Positions 19,759-51,120 of a DNA stretch of 64,000 bases are shown piece after piece. Below the pieces are notes generated by a model that had not been told where the DNA came from, made no database searches, and saw only the letters and a program-made list of their open reading frames with translations. Both the position numbers and the translations under genes were made by a program. Numbering within the stretch: the first letter of the stretch is position 1; each line of letters begins with the position of its first letter. The DNA is from Nemertoderma westbladi (taxonomy: Eukaryota; Animalia; Xenacoelomorpha), in the NCBI GenBank assembly GCA_032718475.1, contig JAUCBJ010007613.1, forward strand, positions 62,001 to 126,000, given 5' to 3'.

Positions 19759-19778
19759 ATATATATATATATATATAT
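19759..19778. repeat. (TA)n microsatellite, left flank of element A
   Basis: Direct reading. Confidence 0.95.
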
Positions 19779-20810
19779 CTTAAACGACACCATAAGGCCA
19801 TGATATATACAGATGTGGCCTTTGTGTGAAATTTGATTTATATCGGGGCCATATAGTGTAAATTGTGGCGGTAGTGCGTAACGCCTATATGGCCATGTGG
19901 CTATTGTGACAGAGGCCGGATATTATTGAAATTAAGAAATTTTTTGATTGATTTTACATAAATTTTGTGAGTCAGAAATATATCACATATTAGATTATTC
20001 GTACATTTATGATACTTAACGTGTAAAAATAAGCATAAATAATTTATCGGTCATGCTTATTATTAGACAACTTGTATTGTTAATGTTTCGATGTGTAAAG
20101 TGGTCATTGCCACGACCTAATACTGTATTATTTTAATTCTTAACTAACTATTATTAGGGACTTATAACATCTGTCTATCTATCAAATAATTAATAAACAA
20201 CTTAATTTTTCAATTACAGGCCCATTTTTACAGCCATTTAAATATTGCGGGACGAAACGCCCTAGAATGCCTAGATCCATAACGCCTGTTACGCCCATTA
20301 TCCAAATTATTATCCGACGAAATACCCGTTATCGAAATACTGACACTGATGCCGGTCAGTCACAATCTAATACTAAGTCCTCCTAAAGGGGGCGGGGCGA
20401 GCAATGAGAAATGCAAATAAATTGTCTAAAAACTAATTTTAATTATTATTAAATTTAAAAGAATTAGAATAAAAAAGCACAAAGAATTGAATTATTAAGA
20501 AGATAGGCCTAACTAAACTATATGATTAAAATACAACTAGACGATTAGATTCCAAGAATCAAATATTTCGGGGATGGTTCTATAACTCTGAAAAACTAAA
20601 CTAAATAACTTGGAATTATTTGTTTATAATCATTTATAGATCATATTTTTATATGCAGAAACATTATACATTTTTCCAATAAAATTGGGTCCAAATATGA
20701 GGCTTGCCAACAACAATGTTCAGGATTAGCTCTTGTGAGTTATAGAACCCCCACTTCACTTAACTATGAATTTAACTAGGCCGACAGATATGATATAACG
20801 TTCGGTTTGT

Positions 20811-23800
20811 TTAAGGTTTGGCATGTTTCATCTTTAGTTTGAGAACGTTGAGTCGTTGGTATATTTGTTTGTCAGTTTTTCCGGGAAATAGACGACGGAC
20901 AGAGGCAATTTTGGTATTATTTCTCGGAATCCGCTTTCCGTTTATCTCTTCTCTGAAGGCTTCGCAGAGACGTACAGATGAATTCGGTGACCAAACAGCC
21001 CGCTTGGATTTCAGCAGTTGTTTAATCTTCCTCGTATTATTCACATTCCTAAACAAGAAAGTATGAAATATGTAAGATTACATGAGAATGTATGAATGAA
21101 TATAAAAAAAACAATACGATGGGATAATACTGTAATTAATAAGCGGACAATTCCGACCCGAACACTTGCGACCCGGAAAATGCAACACCGACAATTCCGA
21201 CCCGAACACTTGCGACCCGGAAAATCCAACACCGACAATTCCGACCCGAACACTTGCGACCCGGAAAATCCAACACCGACAATTCCGACCCGAGCACTTG
21301 CGACCCGGAAAATCCAACACCGACAATTCCGACCCGAACACTTGCGACCCGGAAAATCCAACACCGACAATTCCGACCCGAACACTTGCGACCCGGAAAA
21401 TCCAACACCGACAATTCCGACCCGAACACTTGCGACCCGGAAAATCCAACACCGACAATTCCGACCCGAACACTTGCGACCCGGAAAATCCAACACCGAC
21501 AATTCCGACCCGAACACTTGCGACCCGGAAAATCCAACACCGACAATTCCGACCCGAACACTTGCGACCCGGAAAATCCAACACCGACAATTCCGACCCG
21601 AACACTTGCGACCAGGAAAATCCAACACCGACAATTCCGACCAGAACACTTGCGACCCGGAAAATCCAACACCGACAATTCCGACCCGAACACTTGCGAC
21701 CCGGAAAATCCAACACCGACAATTCCGACCCGAACACTTGCGACCCGGAAAATCCAACACCGACAATTCCGACCACCAAACCGACAATTCCGACCCGAAC
21801 ACTTGCGACCCGGAAAATCCAACACCGACAATTCCGACCCGACCACTTGCGACCCGGAAAATCCAACACCGACAATTCCGACCTGAACACTTGCGACCCG
21901 GAAAATCCAACACCGACAATTCCGACCAGAACACTTGCGACCCGGAAAATCCAACACCGACAATTCCGACCCGAACACTTGCGACCCGGAAAATCCAACA
22001 CCGACAATTCCGACCCGAACACTTGCGACCCGGAAAATCCAACACCGACAATTCCGACCACCAAACCGACAATTCCGACCCGAACACTTGCGACCCGGAA
22101 AATCCAACACCGACAATTCCGACCCGAACACTTGCGACCCGGAAAATCCAACACCGACAATTCCGACACGACCACTTGCGACCCGGAAAATCCAACACCG
22201 ACAATTCCGACCCGAACACTTGCGACCCGGAAAATCCAACACCGACAATTCCGACCCGAACACTTGCGACCCGGAAAATCCAACACCGACTATTGCGGCC
22301 CAATTAAGTTTCATGGATATTTTAGTGGGTCGGAATTAGCTGTCCTTGTTAATAAGCATTTAGACTATTTGTAGTAAATCGTTCTTAATTAAAATTTATC
22401 GCTATTTTACATGTAATATTCGATATACTGTGCTCGTTTATAAGTTGTTCGCTGCAAGAAGTCAATAAAATCTCAATCTATATTATTATGTGGGTAGGAT
22501 ATAGGGTTGATTGTCTGGGTCATAATTAATTGACAGTATACCATAAACACCAACAACAAAATTTTATAGTAGCATATTATAATTTGCATTGTTTGTGTTT
22601 TTATGGTGGTGATATAATAAATATTAATAAATAAATAATATTGGCCTGAAGTCAAAACAAAACTATAATTATATAAATAAAAAACAAACTTTTCTCTTGA
22701 AGGTGAAACGTCTATAGCATTGGAATCTGGTCCTATAGCATTGGAATCTGGTCCTATAGCATTGGAATCTGGTCCTATAGCATTGGAATCTGGTCCTATA
22801 GCATTGGAATCTGGTCCTGTAGCATTGGAATCTGGTCCTGTAGCATTGGAATCTGGTCCTGTAGCATTGGAATCTGGTCCTATAGCATTGGAATCTGGTC
22901 CTATAGCATTGGAATCTGGTCCTATAGCATTGGAATCTGGTCCTATAGCATTGGAATCTGGTCCTATAGCATTGGAATCTGGTCCTATAGCATTGGAATC
23001 TGGTCCTGTAGCATTGGAATCTGGTCCTATAGCATTGAAATCTGGTCCTATAGCATTGGAATCTGGTCCTATAGCATTGGAATCTGGTCCTGTAGCATTG
23101 GAATCTGGTCCTATAGCATTGGAATCTGGTCCTGTAGCATTGGAATCTGGTCCTGTAGCATTGGAATCTGGTCCTGTAGCATTGGAATCTGGTCCTGTAG
23201 CATTGGAATCTGGTCCTGTAGCATTGGAATCTGGTCCTGTAGCATTGGAATCTGGTCCTGTAGCATTGGAATCTGGTCCTGTAGCATTGGAATCTGGTCC
23301 TATAGCATTGGTGTCTGGAGCAGTAGAACCAGGATGTGAAAGAGCAAAGTTGAATGCCCTTTGATGTCTATCACGTGCTGATAAAGCCTCACTGGTTGAC
23401 TGAACAGCCTCATATATCCGTAATTGTGTTTCCCTAGAATGACCCATTGAGTGAGCAGCGTTTTCTTTTTCATGGACTTCTCCTGGTAGTCTTTGGTTGA
23501 AAAAACTCTTGGCGTGCCGAAAACTAGTCGATCCTGCCTTCGACTTGGAACCTGGGACGAGTTTTTGCCACAGGTTATTAAGTGGGATGCTGGTGTTGCT
23601 AAGTTGCTCTCCATTACGTGTCACAAATACGAAACTTGAATCAGAAGACAACGTACGAGAAGTGTATAATGTGCGACCGATATAAACCCATTTCTTTAAT
23701 AAAACGTAATCCTTATAGCTAATGATAATTTTCTGTGGTCCATAAAATCCTGAGGTCTTGTGATTTGGTACTTGAAAAATAAACACATTATTACCGCTGA

Positions 23801-26800
23801 TATCTGTGGTTACAAAACCCTCCTTGAAATGTTTCACTTTTAAGTTCTTTACAACACACTCTCGCAATCCCAGGTCGTATATTATTAGACTTATAAGATA
23901 CGTTTGCATTTCTGTCAGTTCGTCTTTGTCATCAACGTCAGGTAACCTTGTAATATTGTCGCGAATTTTATCAATATATGAAGACGTCTGAAACTTATTT
24001 ATCTCCTCAGCTGTAGGCATGGTTTCCGTAGCCCTTTGGCGAACTGTATAGGCGTGCTTTCTAACATCGGACTTCTGTCGCCGTTGTAAATCTTTTGTCA
24101 CTGTCAGGCCTTTCACGGCCCCGCTAACATCATTTAAGACAAGAAATTCAAAGTATCTCTGAAGTCTCCTTAGTACGGCTTTCAGTGTATTGGCAGACCG
24201 GGTGCCACCACCACGAATTTTCTCAGAAGCTACTTGACAGTATGCATTATGTAATTTTTGTGGATCACTTATCTCATCGAACCTTAGTATGTAGTTCTCT
24301 TTATTATCACCCATATGTTTAAAGAATGTTCTCACACTCGAAGCTATCATTAAGATATCCCTCTCTCTTTCTTTTAATGATTCTTCATTATAATCTGCTT
24401 TCAAATAATCCATAAATTGATCCATCATAGGAGGTTCACCTGGTTCACCAGCGTCAATAGCAGGTAGTATATAACGACTTGGATCATGTAACATTCGTTC
24501 ACGCTCTGGATCTCCGGGTAGAAGATTGTGTTTACAAGTCAGATGGTCACCAATCTTATAAAAACATTTATTGCAAATTAAGCACCGCGATATTCGACGA
24601 TTCGGTTTCTTTTTACCACTTTTATATAATCTTATCACACCAGATTTCTTAAAATATAGTTCTTTACTCTCCAGAGACAGCCGGCTTAAAACCCCGGCAT
24701 GTTGTATTTGGTGTCGATTGCGTAGATGATCATTAATTCGAAGCGTTTCTTTGTGACAGAGTTTACAGATTCTAGGTATATGAGAGTCTTTTGATTTTTG
24801 TGGCATGGAAACATCATCACAATCTCCATTGGTATCAATGCAATCTACGGAGAAAAAAACAAATGATATAATGAAGTATAAATAATTTGAATACTGGAGG
24901 GCTTATCTGAACTAAGTTAATGTATAATCAACTCAATATATAACTGACTGGGACTGTATTGTCGAGCCACGAAGTGAGCGAAGCCTTAGCATATGGGTAC
25001 CATTAACGAGTTGTCTGTCGTAGTCGTCACACGTCTAACTTTTGATCACTAATAACTTTGTAATTCCTTGATGATATTAAACCAAACTTTGTATGTACTG
25101 TATGTAGTACGTCAAAAGTTTAGAAAGAATATGAGGTTTGGTCAAAAATCAGACAGTCTGTCAGTCGGTACCGGTAGGTATTCTAGCGGTACCGCATCAC
25201 TTCGTCTAGGTTTAATAACTTTAGCATTGCATCAATTTTGATGAAACTTTCACAGATTGACGTATGGAATATTCGTAATTCAATGAGTACATAGAGTTTA
25301 TAGCTTCCCACAATTTCACGGTCCGTCACTAGGAGGCGCTAAATATCCACTTCGTCTAGACGCCGTACCTGGGCGGGAAATTTACAAATTGTCCCTCCAT
25401 CCACTAATTGCATTCATAAGAGAGGCAGGTGTATGCTGGCCCGGTTGATGTTTACATACTTACTGTATATAGAAGCTCAGCTGAGAAGTGGATTGGTTGC
25501 AAGTACTATAGATTACAGCTTCTCAGGTTAACTGAGTCTCGTGCTGCGCGAAAGCCCCACAAACATGTATCTTACTGTATTTACGCGAATAAGTTATACC
25601 CCACCCACCCCGCCCGGGGGTGGGGTATAGGCAGGGCCGCATTTAGGAAAAGACCAACTACGCCAGAAATAGTAAATAATAAATGTAGTATAACTAGTAA
25701 GCTAAATTATATATTACCAACAAACTGAGGGGGTAGATTCTGGGGTCTAATCTACGCCGCTAACAGATATGATACCAACCATTCTGCTGGGTCGTAGCCG
25801 CATCAAACTCCTCCTGTGTCGTGGCCGCATCAAACTCCTCCTGTGTCGTGGCCGCATCAAGCTCCTGAAAAATATCACCGACACCCTGGTAACATGTGTC
25901 ATTGTTGGCCATCTGTTGCATGGCAATGCCTGCGTTCGGCAGTGTAGATGGTTGTGGAACATCATGCCACGATGCAGAAGCGTTAACCGATGGACCTGCG
26001 TTAAAATATAGGGCAACAAAATATACAATCACAGTAAGGAAGGATGGAATGTGCCCTTTGTTATGAAACTGGCGTTTGTGACACTTAGAAAAACACCATC
26101 GACATTTGACACTCTAAGCAAGATTATATTTTACTTCTCGATATATGGCTTGGCTGTCTGTCTGTCTACCCGATAGTCTATTTTAAAAAGTTTAAACCTA
26201 CCTCCATGTTTTTCTGAACTTCCATCATCTTCATCCAATAAACTTTCTAGTTCTTCTAAGTCAGGTGGTATTTCTGAACTTCCATCAACTTCATCCAATA
26301 AACTTTCTGGTTCTTCTAAGTTAGGTGGTGCGACGCTGTTATCTGTAATAAATTAATTGGTGTTGAGCTAATGAAACTAAAAATTAAGGAACAGTCATGT
26401 TTCAGGTGCCGAAAAATGCTACACCAGACCAGACCGTACAGTTACGTATACAAGTATACAATTAATACAGCAATACAGAATTACTAAAATATTATTAATT
26501 TATGAGTTTGTACAGTGAATTTGAACAGGCTAGGGGGGGGGGGGGGGGGGGAGCTAGAGTATTATTGGTTCATTATTTTGGGCATGGTTAGTCAGCCCCC
26601 AATCCTAATTAAAACTGTCATGCAAAAATGCTCAATGCTTACATAGGGTTAGGTATTTGACTAAAAATGCTGGTACCGGTAACAAAATTCACCTGACTCA
26701 CCTCGATCGAGATCTAGCCCCAACTCAATAAGAGTATTTCGATTTTGAATTGTATTAACCGGTGTATCTATTCGCCCGGACGAATAAACGAATGAACCCC

Positions 26801-28440
26801 TGCAAATATATAAAGTTCATTGCAGGACGCAATTCACTGAATTTCAGGGCGTACAGTTCTCTTAAATACCGGTAGGCCTATATCAGATCTGTACATATTA
26901 TCATATAAATAAGAAAAATATATAATAATTAATAATAACATAATAATAATAATATATAATAATAGCCATACATCCATGAAAAAATTTAGCTTCCTATACG
27001 TTAGGCGTAATTTGGGACATCATATAGGCTATAGGTTTAAAAAATAAATATTGTGATTGTAAAAAATTGTGATTGTGCTTTACTATTTTCAGTTTTTTGT
27101 CTGTCTGTATCAGTAGGCTACCTGTTGTAGCATACTGATCACTGATGCGCTTTGAAATCACCCAATATACAAAACTAGCAACTACCGGTAGTACATTTTA
27201 CACCCTACACATTTTACCCTGTACATTTTTCACATATTTTTCTAAAATGTTTTATGTCCCAAATTCCCCCAGTTGACCCTATCTTTAATTCAATGACCAC
27301 CTAAACCTAACAATGAGACCAGTATTACATCGCCCTAACCTACTACCGGTATTGTAGACTCACTCATTCACATAAGGAGATATATTTTAACCAGCCAATA
27401 TGATGCTCATGCCTTTACATCATAGTTCTTACCTTTGAACGGGAACAACTGCTCTTTTTTTCGAAGGTGTAAAGCAATCCTTGGCTCTAATCAATTGTTC
27501 CTCCGCCAGGTTGAACGAATCTGTAATATAAATTAAACTCATGTCATGGTACCGTTATCTAAAGTAAAGCATAGTACTGTAGTACATAGTAGGTCGTCAA
27601 CCCGGTCCCACTTGGTGTAGTAGTAAAACTGGTAACAGTTAAATACCTTGGTGTAGTGGTTGCATTTGCATTGAATTCACATCTCTCTGTAGGTCGCGGG
27701 TTCAATCCCCCCCCCCCCCCCCCCCCCCCCACATGCCACATGGGCAAGGGCAGTTTTCGTTTCGGCACGAATGCTTTAAAGGGGACTAGCCAGGGCGCAT
27801 CTGAGCCTTTCATCCTTAATTGGTAGCTAAATGGGTACAGGTACTGCAGTTTCCTCTGGGGAGTAAAGTTCTGGGGGGACCGCACTGGAAATAAGTCGTC
27901 AGACTTTGTGTGTAAACCCGCCCCCGGCACCCGGCTAACGGCCGAAGAAAATTTACTTCACTTTACTTTAGGGCTACCGGCAGACCGGTACTTTTTACAG
28001 TGTTTTACTAAAAAATATCTGCCGGTAGGTAAAGGTCTGCCACTCTGCCAGGCTAGTAGCCTGGCAGAGTGGCAGACCTTTACCTTTACCTACCTTTACC
28101 TACAGGTAGGGTAGCCTGAGGCTACCCTACCTGTCACCTGTACAGGCAGACATGTACCGGTAATTATTCAGTAGAGCTAGACAGCTAGAGGCTTACCTTT
28201 TTGATCGATAATAAAAACATCGTAATGTTCCCAGTCCAGCATATCAGATGGTTCCAACATTGATTGTTTCCTAAGTTTTTTAAACTTTTCATTAGATAAT
28301 CTCTGGATGTTTGAAGGGTAAGGGCAGTAAGTTACCCGTACCGTTTCGCCATTTCCATCCACCTCATTATCAGTCGACAACCAACGGGTCGGGACTGTTA
28401 ATAGACTATTATCGACAATAAACTTCACCACGGAGAACAT
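20811..28440 (-). CDS. 7-exon zinc-finger tyrosine recombinase, 1059 aa; exons 28440-28197, 27520-27433, 26799-26702, 26342-26202, 25995-25780, 24844-22690, 21048-20811
   Basis: All six introns are GT-AG with matching phases (1,2,1,1,1,2); total 3180 nt, no stops. Two CxxC-x9-H-x4-H fingers; YR motifs GLRE, HKT, SFRH and MGHSRETQLRIY; (GPDSNA[TI])n; C-terminal Myb/SANT-like exon (VWSPNSSVRLCEAF...KTDKQIYQRL). Confidence 0.8.
21145..22348. mobile_element. MULE-like non-autonomous insertion with an internal 44-bp tandem array (~26 copies) in the last YR intron
   Basis: 9-bp direct repeat TTAATAAGC at 21136-21144 and 22349-22357. Ends GGACAATTCCGACCC / GGGTCGGAATTAGCTGTCC. Unit ccgacaattccgacccgaacacttgcgacccggaaaatccaaca. 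Confidence 0.7.
22714..23310 (-). repeat. 21-bp coding minisatellite (~28 copies), (GPDSNAT/I)n
   Basis: Direct reading; in frame with the YR ORF. Confidence 0.95.
27648..27970 (+). mobile_element. tRNA-derived SINE in YR intron 1
   Basis: A-box-like ggtgtagtggtt, B-box gggttcaatccc, tttac(t)-type tail; second copy at 17890-18007. Confidence 0.65.
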
Positions 28441-29029
28441 TATGCCAAGCGCCAAGGTTAATTATGTAGGCCTAAAGGAAATGCATTTAGGAAATGCGCA
28501 AATGTGAAGTTAAGGGCTAAATGCTGAAATGCTTTACAGCTTTAGGCTGTTAGGCCTACGACTTTCATTCAGACTACCGGTAAGAGAGAACAAGTTTGCA
28601 GCACTGCATTTACTGTACTACCATGGCCATGGTACTACTGCATTAACGCGGATGAATATTACAACAATACAACAGAAATCTAATATTCCATTAAGACAAT
28701 GATGAACTTCAATTATATTGCTTTGAAAACACCTGTTTTCAAGATAAAGATTTAATATGATAACTTTCATACCAGTAGCCAAACGTAACATATTTAGAAT
28801 GACAAAATTATTCTCTTCAAAATATCCTATTTCAAAATCAAAAACAATTTAACCCAGCAAAATATGTCTTAGGGCGTACTACATTATTAACGAAATTGTG
28901 ATAAGGGGGGGGGGGGGGGGGGGGGGGGGGGTGGTGGTGGTGCTGCCGGGTAGTGGCCTACGTAGTATTCTTCACATGGGGAAAACTGCGAAGTGAAATA
29001 TAACAGCAGAAAGTTTGGTGTACTTTACA

Positions 29030-31390: not shown

Positions 31391-32646
31391 GGGGAAAATC
31401 CTGGGTAAATAACAGCTGAACTGTTGTTACCTGTTCTATTAAATTAAATTTTTGTATTGTTAGAATAACGAGCCATTGTGACCTGCTCCTTTCCATTAAT
31501 TGTTTATTTAACAATGAGGCGAGATTTTCAATTCTTCAATATTCCAGACCTCAAATGGTCCAAATAAAATCAAAGTAATATAAACGTGTGTAATCACAAA
31601 AGATATTAAAATTATGTAAGTATGTATTTATTGAAATGATGAGTAAAATACATTTTGATATTAATTTAGCAGTAGCAATATTAAATTAGCAGATTCGAAT
31701 TCAATAACTAACGCCAGGAGATACTCTCATTACGTGACTAACATTTATCTTTCAATTTAAGTGATTGTATATTTCTTAGTAAAGAAACATATGATACAGA
31801 GATAGGTTCATTATAAGAACCAAAATAATAAACCACCTAGAGGAAATATTGACGCACGACCCAACGATGCAATGTAGAAGCAATGGATGTACAGTAGGAT
31901 GTACAGTAGGACCTACACCCCCTATGAATGGAGCAGTATTTCATCAATTTAATGGCATGTCCTAATTGTATGGGAATGAATCGTCCTCTTGTTTAGATTA
32001 TCAACGATAAGAGGTTGAGACTGATCTACTATCAAATTAAAAATGACGAGTGAAAATTGAGTTGCCAATATTTCAGCCACTACAGTTTTTTTTAAACAAT
32101 ACGAGTATTTTTAATTAAAACTGTTTAGGGCTTACTAAATAGTAAATCTCGTTTTATTATAATTTTTAAAATATTATTTTAACTATTAAATTAGCTTTTT
32201 GTTCATTAAATCATCTCCTGAATAGTCATAAACCACATTAGTATAATAATTACAGCCGTTCCATAAAAATTTCGTTGTAAGTACTCTCACCATTAAATCA
32301 TAAAGAAACAACAATTGCCCTTTTGCAATACCTTAACATGCCGTCAGGGGGTGCTCCAATTTACACTTATTCACTGTCATTATTTTATATATATATATTG
32401 CACATAATGGACACGTGGCCCTAGTGTGTATCTTTTGAAACTAAAAGCAAATAGCAACTAAACGCAATATGGCCACTTTTACTTGACAATCAATTTTGGA
32501 AAGTTTCTATGATTAAAAATACACCTTATCATTTGTAGTGCCATATTTCAAGGACACAGAGGTTCTGAAAACGTTTCAAGTCTTAAAATTAATATAAAGG
32601 GCAATATATTCACTTTGTTAAATGTGGCCATATTGACCGTTTTAAG

Positions 32647-32660
32647 ATATATATATATAT
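32647..32660. repeat. (AT)7 spacer shared between elements A and B
   Basis: Direct reading: ...ttttaag atatatatatatat g tacgttc... Confidence 0.9.
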
Positions 32661-38340: not shown

Positions 38341-38369
38341 AAGGAAATTGTCCTAAGGAAATTGTTTAA

Positions 38370-38715
38370 ATTGGGATCTAAGTCTACCTAAGATCTAAGT
38401 ACGCTTTGCTTTCAACGTGGGGATCTATAAGTTCGCCTTGCGACTAGCATGATGATTTCCAAAGGCTTTTAATAGCATAAATTGGGATCTAAGTTCACCT
38501 AGTTAGGATCTAAGTTCACCTAGTTAGGATCTAAGTTCACCTAGTTAGGATCTAAGTTCACCTAGTTATGATCTAAGTTCCCCCAGGCAGGATCTAAGTT
38601 CACCTAGTTAGGATATAAGTTCACCTAGCTAGGATCTAAGTTCACCCAGATAGGACCTAAGTTCGGAAAGATCTAAATTCATCAAAGTCAGACCTTGCAG
38701 GATCTAAGTTCGTTT
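38370..38715. repeat. 21-bp tandem repeat ggatctaagttcacctagtta upstream of the element-B YR gene
   Basis: Direct reading; about 8 good copies plus degenerate ones. Confidence 0.9.
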
Positions 38716-38916
38716 TACCGTAGCCTGGTAGCACAAGTATCGGTAGAGTACCGTTACCATATGCAGTAAGCAGTACGTGGTACACCAGCAGAGCAGTAGT
38801 CCTGTACAGCTGTAGTCCTACAGAAGTAGTAGGCCTGCATATATAGACCCACCCCAGCACCCTGCCACCCCACCAGTCAGCCAGTGCTGCAGCCTGCAGA
38901 GCAGCAGTTCAGCAGA

Positions 38917-41900
38917 ATGCCCAAATCAAAGAAGAAAAATTTCCGAATTAATAGAAAGTTGGTCGTTTACAATAATACCCTTACACCTACCAAATTGTCT
39001 GATGGATCGCCCATTACATCCACACCACGCAGGACTACACGCGAACCACAAGATCAAGAAGGTAAGTTTACCTGTTTACTGTTGTGTAGGGTCCGTCTAA
39101 CCGGTAAACACCCAAATCACACCAAATCACAAACCAAATCTGCAAATCACCAATCACAAATCACGGTCCTTCGAACAACGAATTACCGGTACTCAAAAAA
39201 AAAACAAAATTATCCAAAAATACGCAATTTTTTTGGGTAGGCCTACCGGCTGACCGGTAATTCGTATCGTAGGACCCACCAACAGACCAAATCACAAACT
39301 GACAAACCAAACCGCCAAATCACAAAAAATAATCCCAAAAGGGGCCAAAACCAAATCACTCCAAAGTCCAAACCAGATCCAGAGATCACACCGAACAGCC
39401 TTAAATGATAGGCCCTACCAAATCACAACAAATCACACCAAATCACAAAAACAAATTTAAAAGTAAAGGCATGAAAGGAGCAGGTTACAGTTTAGTGTAC
39501 AGTGACAGTGCTGCAGTGCAGCAGTGGTAGCCAGAAGAAACCAAAACAATAAACGATTAGAAAAAAATAAAAATTAGGATTTTTTGTGTGATTTGGCATT
39601 TGGGCTGTTGGGTGTTTGGTGTGATTTGGTCAATTTTGTGTGATTTTGGCTGTTGGGTGTTCAGGCTGTCAGGTCATCAGGTGTTTAGACGGACCGGTCT
39701 GCCGCCCTGCCGGTCTGGTTGTTGCAGTGTTGGTCTGTTGGTTGTGTAAGAAAACATTACCAGATTACAGCATTAATGGCTCTATCCTGTTTGGTACACT
39801 GTGCACTGCCTGACTGCCACTGCACTAGGCGGGTCCGACGAATTTGTACAAAAAAGTACAAAAAAATACAAAATAGTAGGCCTACAAAAGAATACAAAAG
39901 AGTAGGCCTACAATAAAGTGCAAAAATAGTACAAGAGTGCCATAATAGTACAAAAGAGTACAAACGAGTGAGAAACGCTTGCAAAACGTGTAGGCCTATC
40001 CAACTGTAGTTCAAATCGTTTAGAGAGGCGCACATGACAGCATGATGTGCAAATTAAAATAAAGCCTTGTCTGATTGTGGGGCGAACCATGCATTGAGCG
40101 GGGGCTGATCTAGCTGTCTAGCAGTCAGAGAGTACGCCCCTATTACAATACAATCTTATGAGTTTTAATGCAGCCTTTTGTGTTGAAAAAACACAAAAAA
40201 CGGTCCCAAGCCCGCAAAGTTGCAGAGGGAGAACTCAATAAAGTTGCAGATAGAGGCGTACATACAGACATACATAGCCTACATAATGTACAGTAGCATA
40301 CAGTCTATCCTATCCTTCAGTATATGGGCTACTTTAAGACTATGACCTAAATTTTGATTCTCAGTTATAGGAGTTAAATCTACCCACTGCATAGTATTGC
40401 ATTATATTGTATTATACGAACTGTAGCCTGCTATTTCTACTTGTAAGCCAGTCAAAATCTACATGAATCAAAGTCCTGTCAATCATTTCATACTGACCAC
40501 AGAACCAAGGCCGCTAGTCAGCTAGTGATTGACACTGTAGCGGCGCATATTTCGGTCCCGTTGCATTTGCTTACAATTAATTATATTTATATACAAGTGT
40601 AGTGTGTAGTGTAGTGTAGTAGACTACACTGGTATAAACGTTTTGTATGCGTTTCTCACTCGTTTGTACTCTTTTGTACTATTTTTGCACTTTATTGTAG
40701 GCCTACTCTTTTGTACTGTATTGTACTATTTTGTACAGATTGGTCGGACCGCACTAGGCAGCTAGGGCCTACCGCTCTGTTCACAAACCTGTAACCGGTA
40801 GGACTACCGGTCACCAGTAGCGCGGTAGGCCTTTCTTCCAACTAATTTCCACTGATTCAGGCTGTCAGGGTTCCGACTTCCATTAGACCCTAGCCCATTA
40901 GACCCTAGGTTAGGGTTAGAAAAGGTCCAAACTCTAGACAAAAAGTGTCTGAAACCCTACCTGGAACCCTTTGTTAATTTGGGCCCGAAGGGGGAAGGGC
41001 CCAAAATGACAAAAATCTGATTTCAGGGTTCCAACAGCAACAAGGGCTGAAGGATTAGCAGCATGAGGGTTCCAGGTAGGGTTAAGGTTTCAGACCCTTT
41101 TTGTCTAGAGTTTGGACTTGCCGAGTAACAAGTAACTGGAAGTCCGTAAAAAATGGCGCCCCAGGCTGCAGCTGCAGGGCGCCTGCTGCCTGCAGTATAC
41201 CAAACATGATATACCCGCATTACAGCATTACCTACCGGTTACGACACTGCGACAGCCTAACAAATCTGCCACATTCATGTGTAGGGCCTACTCTTTACTC
41301 TACATTTTCTCAGTTATCCGTTTAATTTAGTATAGCCTAGGCCTACTCATTGGACAGTCTGAGTAGGAGGCGTAGGCCTATGGTACCAAAGGCCAATGGT
41401 ACCAAACCAATACCGAATTTTTTTTCATATAGGTGTTTGTATTTGAGTTAAAAATATTTTTTTGTAAAATTTATTTTATCAGCATAAGAAGCGTTACATA
41501 AAGAAGTCCCATGCCAAATTTCAGTCAATTAGGCCTACCTCTTTTCGTTCTCACACACTAACACAAAAACCAAGTTAAAATCTTAATTAAAATCTTAATT
41601 AATTAGGTTTGGTTGGTGCTTGTAGGATAGTCTAATTATGTAGCCTAATTAATTTTACTAATTATAGATTAGACCTACCTGTATTACTAGTTCGGTAGGC
41701 TACCATGCAGCCATGGAAGCACCAGACTTAAGTATCCACCAGACTTAAATGAAATTATCCAGTATTGGCATTGATACGATTTTGTTGCCTGTCTCATAAA
41801 CTTTAATATATACAGGCCCTATATACTCTCCTTTGCCTCAATTTCTAATTGGAACCCCTCTAATGCCCAGTTATCAGGGCCTCTCACTCATTAATTATTG

Positions 41901-43504
41901 TTTCTTTATTTTACACTATAGAATCAAATATGCAAAGGGATGTTGACGAAGAATGTTATTTGCATGAAGCTGAAATTATCCTTGAACCAATTGAAAGTGT
42001 TAGACCTATAGTAGAGAGTGCAAGTGAGAGTGACACTGAAACTGTTGCTTATCAAGTACCGGTCCAAGAAGCATTGAAACCTTCAACATGTGACATGTTT
42101 GGAGATATGCTTGATTTTGATTCGTCTGATAGCGATGACCCCGATTACATTCCCGATGACAGTTCCACCGATTCGGAAGACACTGAATTTGATGTCGTTT
42201 CAGATATTGACATTGCAATGTTGAGTGATGGTTGCTCTCCATTCGATCTTATTTCTCCTTATTTTGGAGCATCATCCGAGCAGAATAGTGATGAGGATGA
42301 CCCCGATTACATTCCCGATGACAGTTCCACCGATTCGGAAGACAATGAATATGATTTCGTTTCAGATGTCGACATATCTACCGGTATGTTGTCTGATGGT
42401 TTCACTCCATCATGTGAACCTCACCTTCTCCCTGATTTCTTCACTAGATTTGACCACAATCGCGATGACCCCGATTACATTCTAACTAACAGTGAGTGTT
42501 CCATGGATTCGGGGGGAAGTGACAATAATTATGTTCCCTCCGAATCAGACTGTCATTCGGAATCTCCCAAGGGTAGTAGCTCTAGTTCTAAAAAGAAAGC
42601 TCGCTCGACATGCCTCATTTGTAAAAGAAAAGTGCAGAGTCGTAACATATCTCAGCATATGAAGCGAGTTCATCATATAAAGGGGAAGAAAGCTCTTGGT
42701 TACTCGAGGGTGATGTCTCGCAAGAGGCGTGGTAAATACAAACGCAAGGAATCTGTTTGTTCCTTGTGTAATGCCGTTGTTGAGCGGCTAGCAAATCATC
42801 TAACGAATAAACATAAACTCCCCGTCTTCATTATTGATTCTTATGGTAATAAAATCAAAAATACAGAACGTCAAGATGTTCTGAAAGATTCCCACAGATT
42901 TAACTTTAACGATGTACAGCAAATTTTAGTCGAAGCTGAACCTGAAGTCAAAGTTCCTTTGTTGGATGAATTTCGTGTATATTTGAGTAATAAGCGGCAT
43001 GGGTTCAAATCCCGGGATGTTGAATTCATAATTGGGCTCGTCACTCATTTTTTTAGGCTCATGTCTAAAGGCATTGATAGTGCTGAAAGGTTAAGTGTTA
43101 CCCATATGTTCAATGCAGATCTTCTTGAGACCACTTTCGATCGACTAACAGAGGAAGTAGTACGTGGGGGTAAAGTTCGGGAAGTGACTTCATTATCTGT
43201 GTATGCACAGAAACTCCTTCTCTGGGAGCGCTTTGCTAGTCGTTATTACCGCCGGTTGAATATTCAAGGAGATGACATAGCTCAGGAAACTATTATCCTC
43301 TGTAAAACCGTATTCGAAGAGATCCAACGGTCTTTAAGGCGAGGAGTTCGGGTCCAACATGCTGTGAGACTTCAAGAGGCAACTGCTAATATGCCGACTA
43401 AGGAGGAACTAGGATCTTTCTTCAATTCAGAGATCGTGAGTGAAATTAAAAGCGCGATAAAACAACCGTTTATTATTTTGGTTCCCCATTATTTTGGTAT
43501 GTAA
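38917..43504 (+). CDS. Element-B YR gene, N-terminal half (exons 38917-39061 and 41922-~43466): acidic repeats, 2 C2H2 fingers and pre-catalytic region; truncated
   Basis: Phase-1 intron G|gtaagt...ctatag|AA joins in frame. Fingers CLICKRKVQSRNISQHMKRVH and CSLCNAVVERLANHLTNKH. ATANMPTKEE is homologous to element A ATETMPTAEE. Homology stops at 43466. Confidence 0.8.
39090..39695. mobile_element. MITE-like element
   Basis: GGTCCGTCTAA / TTAGACGGACC termini; subterminal caaatcac repeats inverted between the two halves. Confidence 0.6.
39825..40757. mobile_element. MITE-like element with long (~120-160 bp) imperfect TIRs
   Basis: ggtccgac...tacaaaagagtacaaacgagtgagaaacgc is inverted at 40637-40757. 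Confidence 0.7.
40925..41117. mobile_element. Small foldback/MITE
   Basis: gtccaaactctagacaaaaag..tctgaaacc..cctacctggaaccct is inverted at the other end. Confidence 0.7.
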
Positions 43505-43585
43505 ACCTGTTCCCTTTACCAACATGCTTGATATACTGTAATAATGTAAAGGTCTACTGTAGTGTACTTACTGTGTGTAACTATA

Positions 43586-43793
43586 ACTGTAGGCTAGGTG
43601 AGATAAATAATGACAACATAAAACTACTGTATTAACTTAAGGAACTACAGTATGTAGGCATACTTATAGTATGTAGGCATCCCCCCCCCCCCCCCCCCCA
43701 CCCGTAGTTTTAGCCCCTGTACAGTAGTACTCATTTCCCAAAGTTATTACAGTAGTTTTATGTTGTCATTATTTATCTCACCTGGCCTACAGT
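43586..43793. mobile_element. Small foldback/MITE with ~53-bp arms
   Basis: actgtaggctaggtgagataaataatgacaacataaaactactgta is inverted at 43741-43793. Confidence 0.75.
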
Positions 43794-45739
43794 ACAGTAC
43801 CAATACATATTATAAAGCATGTGGCATTGTTATTAAATTGTTCGTGTGTATGGTGATATTTTCACACAGTTTCTTAGGCCTCCAGGTCGAATTTGTTTAA
43901 TTCACTATAAAACGCCACTAAAAAGTCTACTGATATACTGTACAGTACCAGTTAATTAACGGTAACTGCTACAGTAGGCCCTACACTTATTAATGGTAAA
44001 AAAATCTTACAGACAAAATACATCAAATGCATACATTTTATGAGATGTATCAACATAATTTCAATGATTTTTTTACTTTATTCTAGAATATTAATTCGCT
44101 TTTTTTTCCGATAATAAGTAATAAAATATATATAAAATAATAATAAAAATATATATAATAATAAAATAATATAATATAATAATAAAATAATATAATATAA
44201 TAATAAAATAATGCAGTATAATAATAAAATATCATAAAAAATAATAAACCATCAATAATAATTAATAAGATTGATTAAATTAATTAAAAGCTTGAAATTA
44301 ATATTCTAGATAATAAAATCATCAGAACTATAACGATTTACGTCTGAAATTGCGTGCTCTTGAATTATATCTGAACATTTTTTTTGGGGAAATTGAAAAT
44401 GGCTTTCATATTCGATTCGGAATATCAAGTATATTTAAAAAAAAATAAAATAAAATTGACACGTTTTAACAGTTGTAAACTGTTAGTTAAATCTATGTAA
44501 ACTGTAGCGAAATAATAAAAAAAATAAAAATCCTGCGTTAAACATTCGTATAACATTCGTAAAACATTCGTAACGCATTCGTATAGCGTGGGAAACATTC
44601 GTATATAACATGCGGATATAGCATTCGTATAGTGTGCGGGAAACATTCGTATAAGATTAGGGACGCATTCGTAGAATGTGCGGGATTCGAATAAGGTTCG
44701 TATAACATTCGATATGCGAATAAAGGATGCGTATTTGGTTCGGTTTTCGCATTCGTATCGCATGGTTCATCTATGTAACATTTCAGAATTCGTTACGAAT
44801 GCGTGAAATATGCGCCATCCCATGCGTTACGCATGCGGAGTTTTTTTACTGGGAATTAAAGCCAACACCTATACAATTAGTGCAGGCCCAATTATCGTCG
44901 AATGATCATAAATGCAACTGAAATAAGTTTCAGATATATTTGTACAAATTTTTGGTGTGGCCAAAGTAACCCCGTTGTCCGCCATGGGCACCTGGGTTAC
45001 TTTGTCCAGTGAAAAAATCAATTGAAAATATAACATTTTGAAAATTTTAAATGTTCTATGTGGTGACCTGTTATTTAAGTATATCCACATGCTAGCTGTA
45101 CATTACGTAATAGTCCATGTATATCATATTTCAATCAAAGATTGAAAGTTTTTTTTGCATTGTAATTAAGAAATAATTTAGTTTTAAAAATTATAACTGC
45201 TAAAACTTTTTTAATCTTCCATAACCTATAGAAGTGATGGCTATATAAGTAAGCTCTCCAGTCATGCTGGATATGGCATCAACATGTACATAGTTATTTT
45301 AGAATTGAAAAGAAAAACTCGTTTTTTTCAATTGGCCAAAGTAACCCAGGTGGCCAAAATATCCTATGTTTATGGTACTGGACTCGTGTAGCGCGAAGGC
45401 CAAACGAAAATTTTCAAGTATTGGAACTATCGGTACTGCCCTACAGTACCTATCTTTTCAGCTTTTACTGCTTCACTACAGCGCTAGACTTTTGCTTGTC
45501 TGTCTCTGTCATGTTGTAGGCCTATATCGTAGTACAAGTACCAGTAGAGTACCGTTACCGTAAGCTGGTAAGCAGTACAGGGTACACCAGTAGTCCTACA
45601 GAAGTAAGCTACTTCTGATCTTTCGGTGTTTGAATTGCCTCTTTGTTAAATTTGCGATTCCAGGATTCCGACACCCCAGCATAGGCCAGTACAGCAGTAG
45701 GCCTGCAGACCCACCCCACCAGTGCAGCAGTTCAGCAGA

Positions 45740-47224
45740 ATTATCCTCTGTAAAACCGTAGGCCCTATTATTCGAAGAGATCCAACGGTCTTTAAGACGA
45801 GGAATCCGGGTCCAACATGCTGTGAGACTTCAAGAGGCAACTGCTAATATGCCGACTAAGGAGGAACTAGGATCTTTCTTCAGTTCAGCGATCGTGAGTG
45901 AAATTAAAAGCGCGATAAAACAACTTGACGATCCAAAGATCAATCCAACTGATGTGCCACTTTGGCAAATGCAAAGCCTGCTGTTATGTGAGCTAATTTT
46001 GAAACCATCGATTAGACCTGGAGGTGTATTGAATATGACACTAGATGATGTTACAAAGAGGTGCACTGAGGGAGAGTTTGTAATAATTACTGTACAGGAC
46101 CACAAAACAAACGGTATTTACGGACCATTGAAAGTTGTCATGTCTGCAGAAGTGTATGGACTTCTTAAGAGGTGGATATATTTCGGAAGAAGCCAATATG
46201 CTAAAGAAAACTTGTCTGTTCCAAATGTTTTTACAAACACTCAAGGCCATCAACTTGCAGTTGTGGCACCAAAGCTTCAAGCTCTCTGGTTGGCTGTACT
46301 TCCCGATTCGACAAGTACAATAACACCTACAGAAGTCCGGCATGTGGTTTCAACTCTCAACCAGCAGGAGACAACTACGTATTCTGATCAAAACCTTGTG
46401 TGCAGGTAAGAACAGTTCCTTGATTATTATAGTTAGTATTATTATACAGTACCGGCATTCTCTTTTTTTTTTATATATATAGGTATAAGGTTCTTTGATT
46501 TAGGGGATCAGTTGTTTTAAATTGATGCAATATCTATGCTAGATACCGGTATATAACAATTCAATGTAACTTATTTCCAATATTAATTCTAAATAAAGTT
46601 CTAAAAGTTTATATTTAGGATCAAGCTTTCAGCCCTGAATAGGGGTATTCTTCAGTAAAGCGGGATTACAGCGCAACACACACGAAACTGGTGCTTAAAT
46701 ATCTCATAATTTGCGGGTTCTTGTCACATTTATTTTATTATTCATTCATATTTATTATTATTATTAAAATGGTATTCTTTAATAATGACTTTATTAATAT
46801 ACTTCAATATTATTAAACAGGTTAGGTTAAGGAATAGGATGTCCTGTCCATGTCCAAACCCTAGACTAAAAGTATCCTAAACCCAAACCTATAAAACGAG
46901 ATATATCTGTTCTAAAACTTACCAGGTTCAGATTGACCTACATAACAAAACCTTTCATGCGGTCTCCTTTACCAACAGCCGGTTGTTACAGGCTGTTTTA
47001 GATAGAATTTGATGGAATGTTTATTGCATGATAAGAATGAAATAGTGGAATAATAATATTTACTCAAAATTTTTAATTTGACATCGTTGTTTTATAGGGC
47101 AATGGGGCATTCGATGACGACTCAACGATCTGCTTATGAAGCTTCGTTGTCCAACACTAGAGCTGCTGATGCGTACCGCATCATTGGAGGATTGATTAAT
47201 CTACGGAATAAGAACACTGAATAG
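45740..47224 (+). CDS. Element-B YR gene, catalytic half (exons ~45849-46405 and 47098-47224)
   Basis: SIRPG, HKTNGIYGP and EVRH. Phase-2 intron AG|gtaag...ttatag|G gives RAMGHSMTTQRSAYEAS...NKNTE*, which supplies the catalytic H and Y. First in-frame ATG at 45849. Confidence 0.85.
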
Positions 47225-47876
47225 CCTGAAGTTACCTCAGCTTGACTGATATATAATTAAAATATATTATATTTTAATTAAATATTTTAACTCAAATTAT
47301 ACCGTTACTTCGGTAACAACTCTAATTGTTACTAATGTTTCTATTGAAACTACTAATAACTTTTATTAATTCCGTAAACTCCTTTTAGTAATCATTGTTA
47401 TATTCATGGAATACCTATTAGTAACTTTGTACTTGTTTCACCAATTTTTAGTGGTGGTATACTTTTATGTCCATTAAAAATCTATATTATACCGTTAAAA
47501 CAATATACAGTAGGCTATACTTAAATGTAAATAAATTTTATGATTTTTCAATTCCTAACTTCAAATTGTGCTAAATTCCATATATTTATTTAAAACATTA
47601 CATTGTGCATCTAATATTCTGAATTGTTCTAAAATTCATATTTTTTATTTCGTTTCATCTTTATAATTATTACCTTACCTATTATTGTGCTATATATATT
47701 CAGAATTGTGCTAAATTCCTTATTTATATTTGTCCGTATCTGTCTCTGATGTCCTACAACACACACACACACAGTTTGTCGAGATGCAATAATAAGTAAA
47801 TTACATTATTAACTACGGTATAATTAACATTTTTTATTTTTGGCTCCTAATAGTCGTATTATGAATTTTAATACCT

Positions 47877-49840
47877 ATAGTCAGTTGTTTTAGCTTTTAG
47901 ATACTCAGTTAAATATAGTCAGTTGTTTTAGCTTTTAGATACTCAGTTAAATATAGTCAGTTGTTTTAGCTTTTAGATACTCAGTTGTTCAATATAGTCA
48001 GTTGTTTTAGCTTTTAGATACTCAGTTGTTCAATATAGTCAGTTGTTTTAGCTTTTAGATACTCAGTTGTTCAATATAGTCAGTTGTTTTAGCTTTTAGA
48101 TACTCAGTTAAATATAGTCAGTTGTTTTAGCTTTTAGATACTCAGTTAAATATAGTCAGTTGTTTTAGCTTTTAGATACTCAGTTGTTCAATATAGTCAG
48201 TTGTTTTAGCTTTTAGATACTCAGTTAAATATAGTCAGTTGTTTTAGCTTTTAGATACTCAGTTAAATATAGTCAGTTGTTTTAGCTTTTAGATACTCAG
48301 TTGTTCAATATAGTCAGTTGTTTTAGCTTTTAGATACTCAGTTAAATATAGTCAGTTGTTTTAGCTTTTAGATACTCAGTTGTTCAATATAGTCAGTTGT
48401 TTTAGCTTTTAGATACTCAGTTAAATATAGTCAGTTGTTTTAGCTTTTAGATACTCAGTTAAATATAGTCAGTTGTTTTAGCTTTTAGATACTCAGTTGT
48501 TCAATATAGTCAGTTGTTTTAGCTTTTAGATACTCAGTTAAATATAGTCAGTTGTTTTAGCTTTTAGATACTCAGTTGTTCAATATAGTCAGTTGTTTTA
48601 GCTTTTAGATACTCAGTTAAATATAGTCAGTTGTTTTAGCTTTTAGATACTCAGTTAAATATAGTCAGTTGTTTTAGCTTTTAGATACTCAGTTAAATAT
48701 AGTCAGTTGTTTTAGCTTTTAGATACTCAGTTAAATATAGTCAGTTGTTTTAGCTTTTAGATACTCAGTTGTTCAATATAGTCAGTTGTTTTAGCTTTTA
48801 GATACTCAGTTAAATATAGTCAGTTGTTTTAGCTTTTAGATACTCAGTTAAATATAGTCAGTTGTTTTAGCTTTTAGATACTCAGTTGTTCAATATAGTC
48901 AGTTGTTTTAGCTTTTAGATACTCAGTTGTTCAATATAGTCAGTTGTTTTAGCTTTTAGATACTCAGTTAAATATAGTCAGTTGTTTTAGCTTTTAGATA
49001 CTCAGTTGTTCAATATAGTCAGTTGTTTTAGCTTTTAGATACTCAGTTAAATATAGTCAGTTGTTTTAGCTTTTAGATACTCAGTTAAATATAGTCAGTT
49101 GTTTTAGCTTTTAGATACTCAGTTGTTCAATATAGTCAGTTGTTTTAGCTTTTAGATACTCAGTTAAATATAGTCAGTTGTTTTAGCTTTTAGATACTCA
49201 GTTGTTCAATATAGTCAGTTGTTTTAGCTTTTAGATACTCAGTTAAATATAGTCAGTTGTTTTAGCTTTTAGATACTCAGTTAAATATAGTCAGTTGTTT
49301 TAGCTTTTAGATACTCAGTTAAATATAGTCAGTTGTTTTAGCTTTTAGATACTCAGTTAAATATAGTCAGTTGTTTTAGCTTTTAGATACTCAGTTGTTC
49401 AATATAGTCAGTTGTTTTAGCTTTTAGATACTCAGTTAAATATAGTCAGTTGTTTTAGCTTTTAGATACTCAGTTAAATATAGTCAGTTGTTTTAGCTTT
49501 TAGATACTCAGTTGTTCAATATAGTCAGTTGTTTTAGCTTTTAGATACTCAGTTAAATATAGTCAGTTGTTTTAGCTTTTAGATACTCAGTTGTTCAATA
49601 TAGTCAGTTGTTTTAGCTTTTAGATACTCAGTTAAATATAGTCAGTTGTTTTAGCTTTTAGATACTCAGTTAAATATAGTCAGTTGTTTTAGCTTTTAGA
49701 TACTCAGTTGTTCAATATAGTCAGTTGTTTTAGCTTTTAGATACTCAGTTAAATATAGTCAGTTGTTTTAGCTTTTAGATACTCAGTTGTTCAATATAGT
49801 CAGTTGTTTTAGCTTTTAGATACTCAGTTGTTCAATACTC
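47877..49840. repeat. 38/41-bp minisatellite, ~50 units of two length variants
   Basis: atatagtcagttgttttagcttttagatactcagtt followed by aa or gttca. Confidence 0.97.
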
Positions 49841-51080
49841 TGTTTAATATATACTCCGTTGTTCAATACTCCGTTTTATATGCGGGTCTCGGTCTACGGT
49901 TAAGCGGTTCGGTTGGTGAATGCTGGGTGAACCTAGCTTTTGTTAGCTTTGAATGCTAACAAGTCCATCAACCTTTGTATCAATAAATTAAATAAATAAC
50001 TAAATAGAAAATAATATTTACAATAAACAAGAAAGTTCTAAGATTTAGTTCTATAGAATTAACCACATGACACCCCCTCCCCCCCCCCCCCCCCCCCCCA
50101 AGTGCAAAAACAGCAGTTTTGTCACAAATTTATATCTAGACCCTCTTCCTCATTAATCGTGATGACATTTATAAATCTATAAATATTTATAAAAATATCT
50201 TGCCATCGTAAATTGGTGGCCTATTTAGTTCTCTAGCATTGTCCACATGACACCACCACCACCACCCCAGTAATAATTAGAACCAGTCATTCGATTCATC
50301 TGATATTTGGTAGGAGTGGTAAGTCTCGTGCTGCGCGAATACTCCAGCCCGTATGTGCAAGATAAGGTTGATATCGACTTCGACTAATACCGCTAATTAA
50401 TATTTTTTTCAGTTAATTTGATTAGGTACTAATCAATTTGGATTGAAATCGGGCCATTTTAATCAATGTATATTTATGGCCCTAATGTTGTTAATCTCAT
50501 TCTTTATGATAGTAAAAATGGCCCCTTCTTCGGGTCATTTTATTTAATAAATCAATTTTGAAACAAGTGGGCCACTCAAATTCTCAGCTCAGTTTATTTG
50601 TAGGATCAAATTGGATTCAAAAGGGCCACTGTATAATGGCCCTAATGTTATTTATCTCATTTTCAGTTCGGCCCGTTTCCTTCTCAACTAATTTGATAAA
50701 TTTCATATGAAGTCACATCAAATAGGGCCTGTTATGGCCCTTTCTTTCTTCACTATATAGTAAGCTCAGTTCGGGCCAATGATATATTATTCCAGACAGT
50801 AAGAGGGCCAATTTTGGCAAATTTTGGCCCTTTTGACTTTTTTGGCCCTAATTCCATTTTATACATTTTGGTAAGTGGCCCGAAAATTGTGTTTTCATTT
50901 AGTAATAAAATGAAGGTGCATAACTTTTTAGAGGAAGGATATACACAAAGGGCCATCCAAGCCCGTTTGCGGTTTCGGGCTAAAGGGCCAAAAAGGGGCT
51001 AAAGGGCCACTTTTTAATACCCCCCAAGTCGCAATAGGGCCACTTTTGATATACAAAAGTGGCCCTTCAGCCCGAACGTA

Positions 51081-51120
51081 TATCTATATATATATATATT
51101 GTATATGTATTATATATATT
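51081..51120. repeat. (TA)n-rich right flank of element B
   Basis: Direct reading. Confidence 0.9.

What the first reader, a model, noticed from the sequence alone, without database searches (positions are those of the whole stretch)
19759..51100. Two large (13 and 18 kb) tyrosine-recombinase transposons stacked in one (TA)n site
Seen: (TA)n | CTTAAACG..GGCCA ... TGGCC..CGTTTTAAG | (AT)7 G | TACGTTCTGCCTAAAGGGCC ... GGCCCTTCAGCCCGAACGTA | (TA)n. Each unit contains its own homologous but clearly diverged ZnF-YR gene (HKTSGFYGP/HKTNGIYGP, LLKKWVYIGR/LLKRWIYFGR, MGHSRETQLRIYEA/MGHSMTTQRSAYEA), in opposite orientations. Knowledge: CryptonV elements are animal YR DNA transposons reported to target microsatellites. 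Inference: these are two families of unusually large, intron-rich, repeat-carrying members that inserted one after the other into the same TA tract. This would make TA microsatellites landing pads for tandem arrays, loosely analogous to fungal Starships.
Basis: partly seen in the sequence, partly recalled or inferred. Interest (0 to 1): 0.88.

Follow-up and report, generated by a model that had tools for sequence, protein, structure and literature searches.

The report
Recombinase transposons stacked in TA tract
Two large jumping genes of an animal genome, each carrying a Cre-like recombinase gene (one with a predicted intact reading frame, one broken), sit side by side in a TA repeat, likely because each insertion leaves fresh TA target on both sides; they carry no cargo genes and most likely belong to the little-described microsatellite-seeking Crypton group.

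Summary
Observation confirmed. A (19779-32646, 12.9 kb) and B (32662-51081, 18.4 kb) have short imperfect inverted ends and abut one (TA)n tract. Both encode tyrosine recombinases (fold: Cre/XerH) that keep R-K-R-H-Y and belong to a large family without its own Pfam model (1,531 clusters; named relatives in a cnidarian, an annelid and a crinoid). A has a predicted intact 7-exon gene, is nearly identical to its sister copies, and its last exon is in an RNA-like run. B's gene is broken by a 2.3-kb interruption with a duplicated piece. So B is likely older, A younger. The Starship analogy fails: no cargo, the size is introns, satellites and inserts. Side-by-side stacking in TA tracts is known for plant MITEs. 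No empty site and no contig across the A-B junction was seen. Likely CryptonV-like, but membership is untestable here. The scan noted similar TA-tract elements in two other genomes.

The parts
19758..19778 (.). Left TA tract (target remnant)
19779..32646 (-). Element A, 12,868 bp, YR DNA transposon
   Evidence: ends; multi-copy both ends
19779..19801 (+). A left inverted arm (CTTAAACG ... GGCC at +17)
20811..21048 (-). Gene A predicted exon 7, weakly Myb/SANT-like; exon and 3' UTR (to about 20449) held by RNA-like run X4
   Evidence: Myb E 0.11; E 0.008 to L001 exon; E 0.13
21146..22301 (.). 44-bp satellite in predicted intron 6
22690..24844 (-). Gene A exon 6: two C2HC/C2H2-like fingers, core-binding region, YR catalytic domain (R590, K625, R705, H731, Y740), 7-aa coding repeat (22712-23318)
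25780..28440 (-). Gene A predicted exons 1-5 (28440-28197, 27520-27433, 26799-26702, 26342-26202, 25995-25780); N-terminal 143 aa found in 0 of 150 relatives
29035..31386 (.). Inverted 300-bp repeats around a (GGTC)103 array in A's right arm
32623..32646 (-). A right inverted arm (GGCC ... CGTTTTAAG)
   Evidence: contigs of X1, X2, X3 end in the TA tract after it
32647..32661 (.). A-B junction, (AT)7G
   Evidence: no listed contig bridges it
32662..51081 (+). Element B, 18,420 bp, YR gene broken; ends ambiguous by the terminal TA
32662..32683 (+). B left inverted arm
   Evidence: multi-copy, X4 contig starts at 32653 inside the TA tract
32923..38289 (+). About 8 copies of a 668-bp GGGCC-rich unit; about 180 bp of it recurs in direct orientation at 50405-50661 (81%)
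38917..43466 (+). Gene B 5' part: predicted exon 38917-39061 and exon 41922-43466 (acidic region, two fingers, core-binding region); frame ends at 43504 before the catalytic domain
43467..45740 (.). 2.3-kb interruption: hairpin and MITE-like pieces, AT-rich run, and a second diverged copy of B's 5' UTR (45527-45740, about 85% to 38728-38791)
45741..47224 (+). Gene B 3' part: repeats 174 bp of 43293-43466 (5 substitutions, 10-bp insert), catalytic domain, GT-AG intron 46406-47097, last exon with H and Y; no start codon or fingers
47876..49837 (.). 38/79/117-bp satellite
51059..51081 (-). B right inverted arm; 19 GGCC in the last 700 bp (2.25 expected)
51082..51120 (.). Right, degenerate TA tract

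Best explanation
A and B are two related tyrosine-recombinase DNA transposons, flanked and separated by TA repeats, that likely inserted one after the other into the same (TA)n tract, B earlier and now broken, A recently and predicted intact. Shown: inverted 22-24-bp ends, multi-copy ends that stop at TA (three of four tested), YR fold and catalytic residues, no other coding cargo found. Inferred from Cre/Tn916-type chemistry: the recombinase binds the two arms, excises a circle whose joint is arm-(TA)n-arm (an att-like site with a TA spacer), and recombines that spacer with a genomic TA tract. The tract is split and kept on both sides, so no target duplication is visible and every insertion leaves two new targets, which would give side-by-side stacks. 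The zinc fingers and GGCC arrays likely form the arm-binding system (untested). The closest named kind is CryptonV (about 0.6, untestable here).
For: Ends and TA flanks. Contig depth relative to the host-gene contig of the same run (rough; the tool warns depth is no copy number): A-left 8.8/7.7/15.2x, A-right 8.2/3.6/4.1x, B-left 23.5/21.6/38.0x in X1/X2/X3. A-right contigs of 1.3-1.5 kb end in the TA tract in 3 of 3 DNA runs; in X3 A-left is at 15x while the window's flank 18168-19663 has no cover; in X1 depth steps from about 70 to 249 across the tract. Age: in X1 A differs from the run's contigs at 5 of 2,443 bp, B-left at 4 of 202, host alleles at 34 of 2,141; in X2 4 of 3,185 against 3 of 239. 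YR: Foldseek PDB hits are all YRs or topoisomerase IB (Cre E 2e-4, XerH, Tn1549 Int); R590/K625/R705/H731/Y740 kept in A and B and in 148/149, 148/149, 145/148, 141/142, 137/140 relatives. Family of 1,531 clusters at E<=1e-3; one 90% cluster holds three Nematostella loci, another lies on many long contigs, as expected for transposons. A and B are sisters among 144 tips (FastTree 0.82). Run X4 joins four host exons across three GT..AG introns, so it behaves as RNA, and holds A's last exon and 3' UTR (0 differences in 454 bp).
Against: No empty or single-element allele was seen, and none of the 32 listed pieces (1,519 not shown) bridges A to B; the left TA junction was skipped as a repeat, so the stack rests on this one assembly. 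B's right end was never laid. In X2 and X3 A-left is 2-4 times deeper than A-right, so not all copies share both arms; X3's A-right differs by 29 of 2,105 bp, so not every A subtype is young. In X2 the flank 19540-19745 is as deep as A-left (150 vs 166), so some copies may extend further left (join not shown). Gene A is a hand model; exon 3 was picked to keep the frame, and X4's contig runs 2 bp past the last acceptor, which does not fit my donor at 22690. Model pLDDT is only 50 overall, 60-80 in the catalytic part. X1 and X3 are one sample, and X2 may be the window's source.
Confidence: 0.75

Rival explanations
1. B is not one element but a composite: the 5' half of one B-family copy and the 3' half of another, internally deleted copy, joined through the 2.3-kb interruption; only A is a simple unit.
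For: Second copy of the 5' UTR fused by an AT microhomology to mid-exon, 174-bp coding duplicate with 5 substitutions and a 10-bp insert, about 85% UTR identity.
Against: No extra B terminus lies in 43467-45400; an old internal duplication plus deletion gives the same picture; the outer ends match as a pair and share a 180-bp module.
Confidence: 0.35
2. The ends belong to non-autonomous elements moved by another (DDE) transposase with TA preference, and the YR genes are passengers or separate inserts.
For: Inverted ends are unusual for described Cryptons (PMC3212892, PMC13465315); B-left is 3-9 times deeper than A-right; TA-targeting TIR elements exist (PMC8449440; Ginger2 in PMC10871703).
Against: Each pair of ends encloses exactly one YR gene; in X1 A-left (249), last exon (223) and A-right (231) have the same depth; no DDE family in 64 internal frames; both elements share the GGCC spacing and sister YRs.
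Confidence: 0.1
3. A, B and the left repeat (18127-19757) move together as one larger unit, or the side-by-side arrangement is an assembly join at TA repeats.
For: Junctions not bridged in the listed pieces; flank 19540-19745 as deep as A-left in X2.
Against: A, B-left and the left repeat have different depths in every run; the repeat is absent from X3; A-right contigs continue with letters that are not the window's G-TACG junction.
Confidence: 0.1

Closest known systems
CryptonV (Kapitonov and Jurka 2012, Repbase Reports 12:2034; seen only as one sentence and a citation in PMC8869645, and as a table entry in PMC4455052 and PMC5753468)
   Same: YR-only DNA transposon of animals, inserted in microsatellites; described from cnidarians, and this family has multi-locus Nematostella members.
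   Different: Its termini, size, gene structure and sequences could not be seen, so sameness of the YR clade, of inverted ends and of 13-18 kb size is unknown.
Cryptons A/F/I/S (PMC3212892, PMC13465315; passages read)
   Same: YR without reverse transcriptase; proposed circle-and-reintegrate mechanism; no true target duplication.
   Different: Described as lacking TIRs and having 4-6-bp direct repeats; here 22-24-bp inverted arms and TA tracts. No DUF3504 or GCR1_C in A, B or 25 relatives.
Nimaviral repeat-targeting YRs (PMC10871703; abstract, passages and Discussion read)
   Same: C2H2 finger plus SAM-like core-binding plus YR; some multi-exon; insertion into microsatellites; related non-viral YRs noted in decapods.
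   Different: Those sit in 200-600-kb viral genomes and target telomere repeats or 28S rDNA; no viral genes inside A or B; kinship not tested by sequence.
Starships (PMC11162782; passages read)
   Same: Large eukaryotic YR elements; DUF3435 clusters score 0.90-0.91 by language-model features.
   Different: No DUF3435, no cargo, YR not at the 5' end, 13-18 kb, animal host.
Microsatellite-targeting MITE clusters of pineapple (PMC8449440; passages read)
   Same: Non-nested neighbours linked by almost pure (TA)n, formed by independent insertions (46.1% of full-length copies in clusters).
   Different: Small, non-autonomous, Mutator-derived (DDE), plants.

Membership tests
Crypton (broad sense) | Encodes a tyrosine recombinase with catalytic residues | tested here: met
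   Fold hits Cre/XerH; R, K, R, H, Y kept; the first His position is Thr as in 119 of 146 relatives
Crypton (broad sense) | No reverse transcriptase, no DDE transposase | tested here: met
   0 of 64 internal frames of 62 aa or more (tandem arrays left out) match such families
Crypton (broad sense) | No terminal inverted repeats (as written for fungal, A, F, S groups) | tested here: not met
   22-24-bp imperfect inverted arms at both elements
Crypton (broad sense) | 4-6-bp terminal direct repeats matching the target | tested here: inconclusive
   Any such repeat would be TA and cannot be told from the tract
Crypton (broad sense) | Circular intermediate | not testable with these tools
   Only assembled contigs of public runs were available
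CryptonV | Insertion into microsatellites | tested here: met
   All four ends abut TA; multi-copy contigs end in the tract for A-left, A-right, B-left; far flanks of other copies not seen
CryptonV | YR falls in the CryptonV clade | not testable with these tools
   No Repbase sequences held; Nematostella multi-locus relatives are indirect only
CryptonA / CryptonF | DUF3504 or GCR1_C domain | tested here: not met
   No hit in A, B or 25 of 150 relatives scanned
Starship | DUF3435 captain at the 5' end | tested here: not met
   No PF11917 hit; genes lie 1-6 kb inside the ends
Starship | Cargo genes | tested here: not met
DIRS / Ngaro / VIPER | RT-RNase H with YR | tested here: not met
   The RT frames of the window lie outside the ends (11057-12382, 52080-53066)
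Nimaviral repeat-targeting YR | Sequence kinship to the viral YR clade | not tested
   No such sequences were fetched; four scans of viral contigs gave no relative

The most novel reading that the evidence does not exclude
A is a young, transcribed, still mobile member of an undescribed superfamily of animal tyrosine-recombinase transposons (over 1,500 protein clusters, no Pfam model) that is distinct from CryptonV: a Cre-like integrase with zinc fingers, a new N-terminal domain and a Myb-like tail that moves 13-18 kb of DNA into TA microsatellites through an att-like arm-(TA)n-arm site, and so builds self-renewing stacks. It would be the first animal YR system open to a direct test of circle excision and repeat-targeted integration of large DNA.
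Probability: 0.25. Interest if true: 0.75.

Novelty: new variant of a known kind. Interest (0 to 1): 0.5.

Why it matters
Animal YR DNA transposons that target microsatellites are known mostly from a database note; in eight searches of the open literature I found no anatomy or mechanism for them. This locus gives defined ends, a predicted intact recombinase gene and signs of recent spread, which makes the circle model directly testable and offers a candidate enzyme for inserting 10-kb-scale DNA into TA repeats. It is not a cargo carrier, and stacking in TA tracts is not new in itself.

Tried and rejected
No whole genome is held, so copies could not be collected by BLAST. Word-index protein searches found nothing for A alone or for alignment A4 and one relative for A5; the HMMER search of all representatives then found the family. 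Four scans of viral contigs, tblastn on phages, PDB by sequence, PHROGs and NCBIfam (XerC E 0.093 only) gave nothing firm. B's left 24-mer has no match in metagenome contigs. The one related locus, L001 (5.5 kb), encodes P0001 but holds no TA tract or ends. The single-sequence fold was useless (pLDDT 33). X4 has little cover on A's right arm, no evidence either way. The Atlas search for A's first exon did not complete; my recalled likeness of that exon to DUF4806/BEN-associated N-terminal domains is untested (Pfam: nothing below E 0.06). YadA and Gp350 Pfam hits are the 7-aa repeat. The second CTTAAACG at 54361 has no TA flank and was rejected as chance. Kojima 2020 (Genes Genet Syst) is not held; supplements of PMC10871703 were listed, not read, and may bear on the YR comparison. 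The profile comes from relatives found and aligned with A and B, so it is not independent. Six of 150 relatives plus none of the window proteins were dropped from the tree for gaps (152 rows, 144 tips: 8 dropped).
Full report
Observation. A spans 19779-32646 and B 32662-51081; they are separated by (AT)7G. Each has 22-24-bp imperfect inverted arms: among the 10 pairings of the window's five TA tracts of 10 bp or more, A's and B's own ends score best, and random pairs reach their scores in 80 and 1 of 100,000 trials (ends chosen by eye). A and B arms do not match each other, but all four carry GGCC 16-17 bp inside, and GGCC is enriched near the ends (19 in B's last 700 bp against 2.25 expected, windows chosen after looking).

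Genes. A holds a predicted seven-exon gene on the minus strand, six GT-AG introns, 1,059 aa without a stop (hand model, exon 3 chosen to keep the frame). It has an N-terminal region found in 0 of 150 relatives, an acidic stretch, two zinc fingers, the recombinase, a 7-aa repeat and a weakly Myb-like last exon. B's gene is on the plus strand and broken: the 5' part stops at 43466-43504 before the catalytic domain, 2.3 kb of other DNA follows, then a second diverged copy of the 5' UTR is fused to a 174-bp duplicate of the exon and the frame continues through the catalytic domain and one intron. A and B are 33% identical over 204 aa of the core. Of B's 18.4 kb, 9.6 kb are a 668-bp array, a satellite and the interruption; A has 2.2 kb of tandem repeats and long introns. 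None of 64 internal frames of 62 aa or more matches a cargo, RT or DDE family.

The enzyme is a tyrosine recombinase. Pfam alone is weak (Phage_integrase E 0.006 for B). A four-row AlphaFold model (mean pLDDT 50, 60-80 in the catalytic part) finds only YRs and topoisomerase IB in the PDB, Cre first, and integrases in the viral library. The Atlas puts unnamed animal clusters first (0.94-0.96), then DUF3435, Myb, ALOG and integrase clusters. A profile search of 1.84 billion representatives finds 1,531 clusters at E<=1e-3 and 434 at 1e-10. In the best 150, R, K, R, H and Y are nearly invariant and A and B keep them; 96 of 150 carry a finger motif; A and B are sisters among 144 tips. Of 25 relatives scanned, none has DUF3504, DUF3435 or GCR1_C; four have weak Phage_integrase and three SAM-like hits. 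Of 20 clusters looked up, three carry species names: Anneissia japonica, Capitella teleta and Nematostella vectensis, the last with three loci in one 90% cluster.

Are the ends real transposon ends? No genome is held, so I laid contigs of four public runs (X1 and X3 are one sample, X2 may be the source) on two stretches. Against host-gene contigs at depth 28.3, 21.6 and 29, A-left is about 9, 8 and 15 times deeper, A-right 8, 4 and 4, B-left 24, 22 and 38. These ratios are rough; the tool warns that depth is not copy number. A-right contigs of 1.3-1.5 kb stop in the TA tract in X1, X2 and X3, with 6, 2 and 2 letters that do not follow the window; an X4 contig starts inside the tract and runs into B. 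In X3 A-left stands at 15x with no cover on the window's flank; in X1 depth steps up across the tract; in X2 a 225-bp flank piece is as deep as A-left, with no join shown. The flank 18127-19757 is thus itself a polymorphic repeat, and X1's host contig leaves the window at 17703. No listed piece bridges A and B, and no empty site was seen. So 'single-copy termini' is refuted for three ends, 'homology stops at TA' holds in most but not all tests, and the stack itself rests on this assembly.

Order and activity. The window's A differs from run contigs at 0.1-0.2% in X1 and X2, less than host alleles in X1 (1.6%), while B-left differs at 1.3-2.2%; X3's A-right is 1.4% off, so older A subtypes exist. 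With B broken and A intact, B first and A later is likely. X4 is on record as guessed DNA, but one contig joins four host exons across three GT..AG introns, so it behaves as RNA; it holds A's last exon and 3' UTR without a difference over 454 bp. That shows transcription of A-family 3' ends, not of the catalytic exon, and the contig's end does not confirm my last splice donor.

Mechanism (inferred). Joining A's ends gives arm-(AT)n-arm, the layout of a YR site: inverted arms around a 6-8-bp spacer (PMC3212892, passage). Excision as a circle and strand exchange within TA would split the target tract and keep it on both sides, hide any target duplication and renew the target, so later elements land beside earlier ones. 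A Tn916-like route without spacer homology (recalled) is possible, and the odd bases in the tracts at 32661 and near 51086 could be its traces or plain mutations.

Comparison. Described Cryptons lack inverted ends (PMC3212892, PMC13465315; passages), so this differs from groups A, F, I and S. CryptonV is said to insert in microsatellites (one sentence in PMC8869645, citing a Repbase report I could not read); it is the likely home, untested. Nimaviral YRs share fingers, introns and repeat targeting but sit in viral genomes (PMC10871703; abstract, passages, Discussion). Starships need DUF3435 and cargo (PMC11162782; passages). Side-by-side clusters linked by (TA)n are known for pineapple MITEs (PMC8449440; passages); a 2018 paper on microsatellite-targeted arrays in guayule and rice was seen only as a reference title there. 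PMC13465017 and PMC10942377 (passages) mention Crypton-V and Crypton-H only as annotation classes. Two earlier notes of this scan describe broken TA-tract YR elements in other genomes; they are leads, not support.

Verdict. Real, correctly seen, and more informative than a broken copy because A looks young and intact; but a variant of a known kind, without cargo. Interest 0.5.

Noticed in passing
window 18127-19757: A polymorphic repeat left of the TA tract: 2-4x host depth in X1, absent in X3, only its last 225 bp (7x) in X2; it ends in the same TA tract and may be a third occupant or the tract's source. No Pfam hit in three frames scanned.
   Followed up: partly
window 51130-51700 (-): Frame 51334-51681 resembles the end of a Penelope GIY-YIG endonuclease (recalled motif; Pfam did not confirm); its 3' side abuts the right TA tract.
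   Followed up: no
window 15631-17402 (+): Host gene exons with Cys-rich Ephrin_rec_like repeats; three introns confirmed by an X4 contig. No further such exons in the window.
   Followed up: partly
window 57586-61150 (-): Broken protein-primed DNA polymerase B frames (PF03175 E 1.6e-7), Polinton-like.
   Followed up: no
window 1-7850: Two diverged copies (68-78%) of a BEL/Pao-like gag region, DUF1759 in 4326-5927.
   Followed up: no
window 11057-12382 and 52080-53066: Non-LTR reverse transcriptase fragments; the second has shorter copies at 4138-4373 and 14764-15130.
   Followed up: no
window 33311-33415 and 31392-31589: Very high-copy short repeats; the first is amplified inside every 668-bp unit of B.
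   Followed up: no
window 28198-28440 (-): A's first exon encodes a compact-looking domain absent from 150 YR relatives; possibly captured from another transposon gene (recalled likeness to DUF4806-associated N-termini, untested).
   Followed up: partly
L001 1653-5004: A relative in a metagenome contig with the same layout (acidic region, two fingers, YR, separate C-terminal exon ending KQIYDR); no ends in 5.5 kb.
   Followed up: partly
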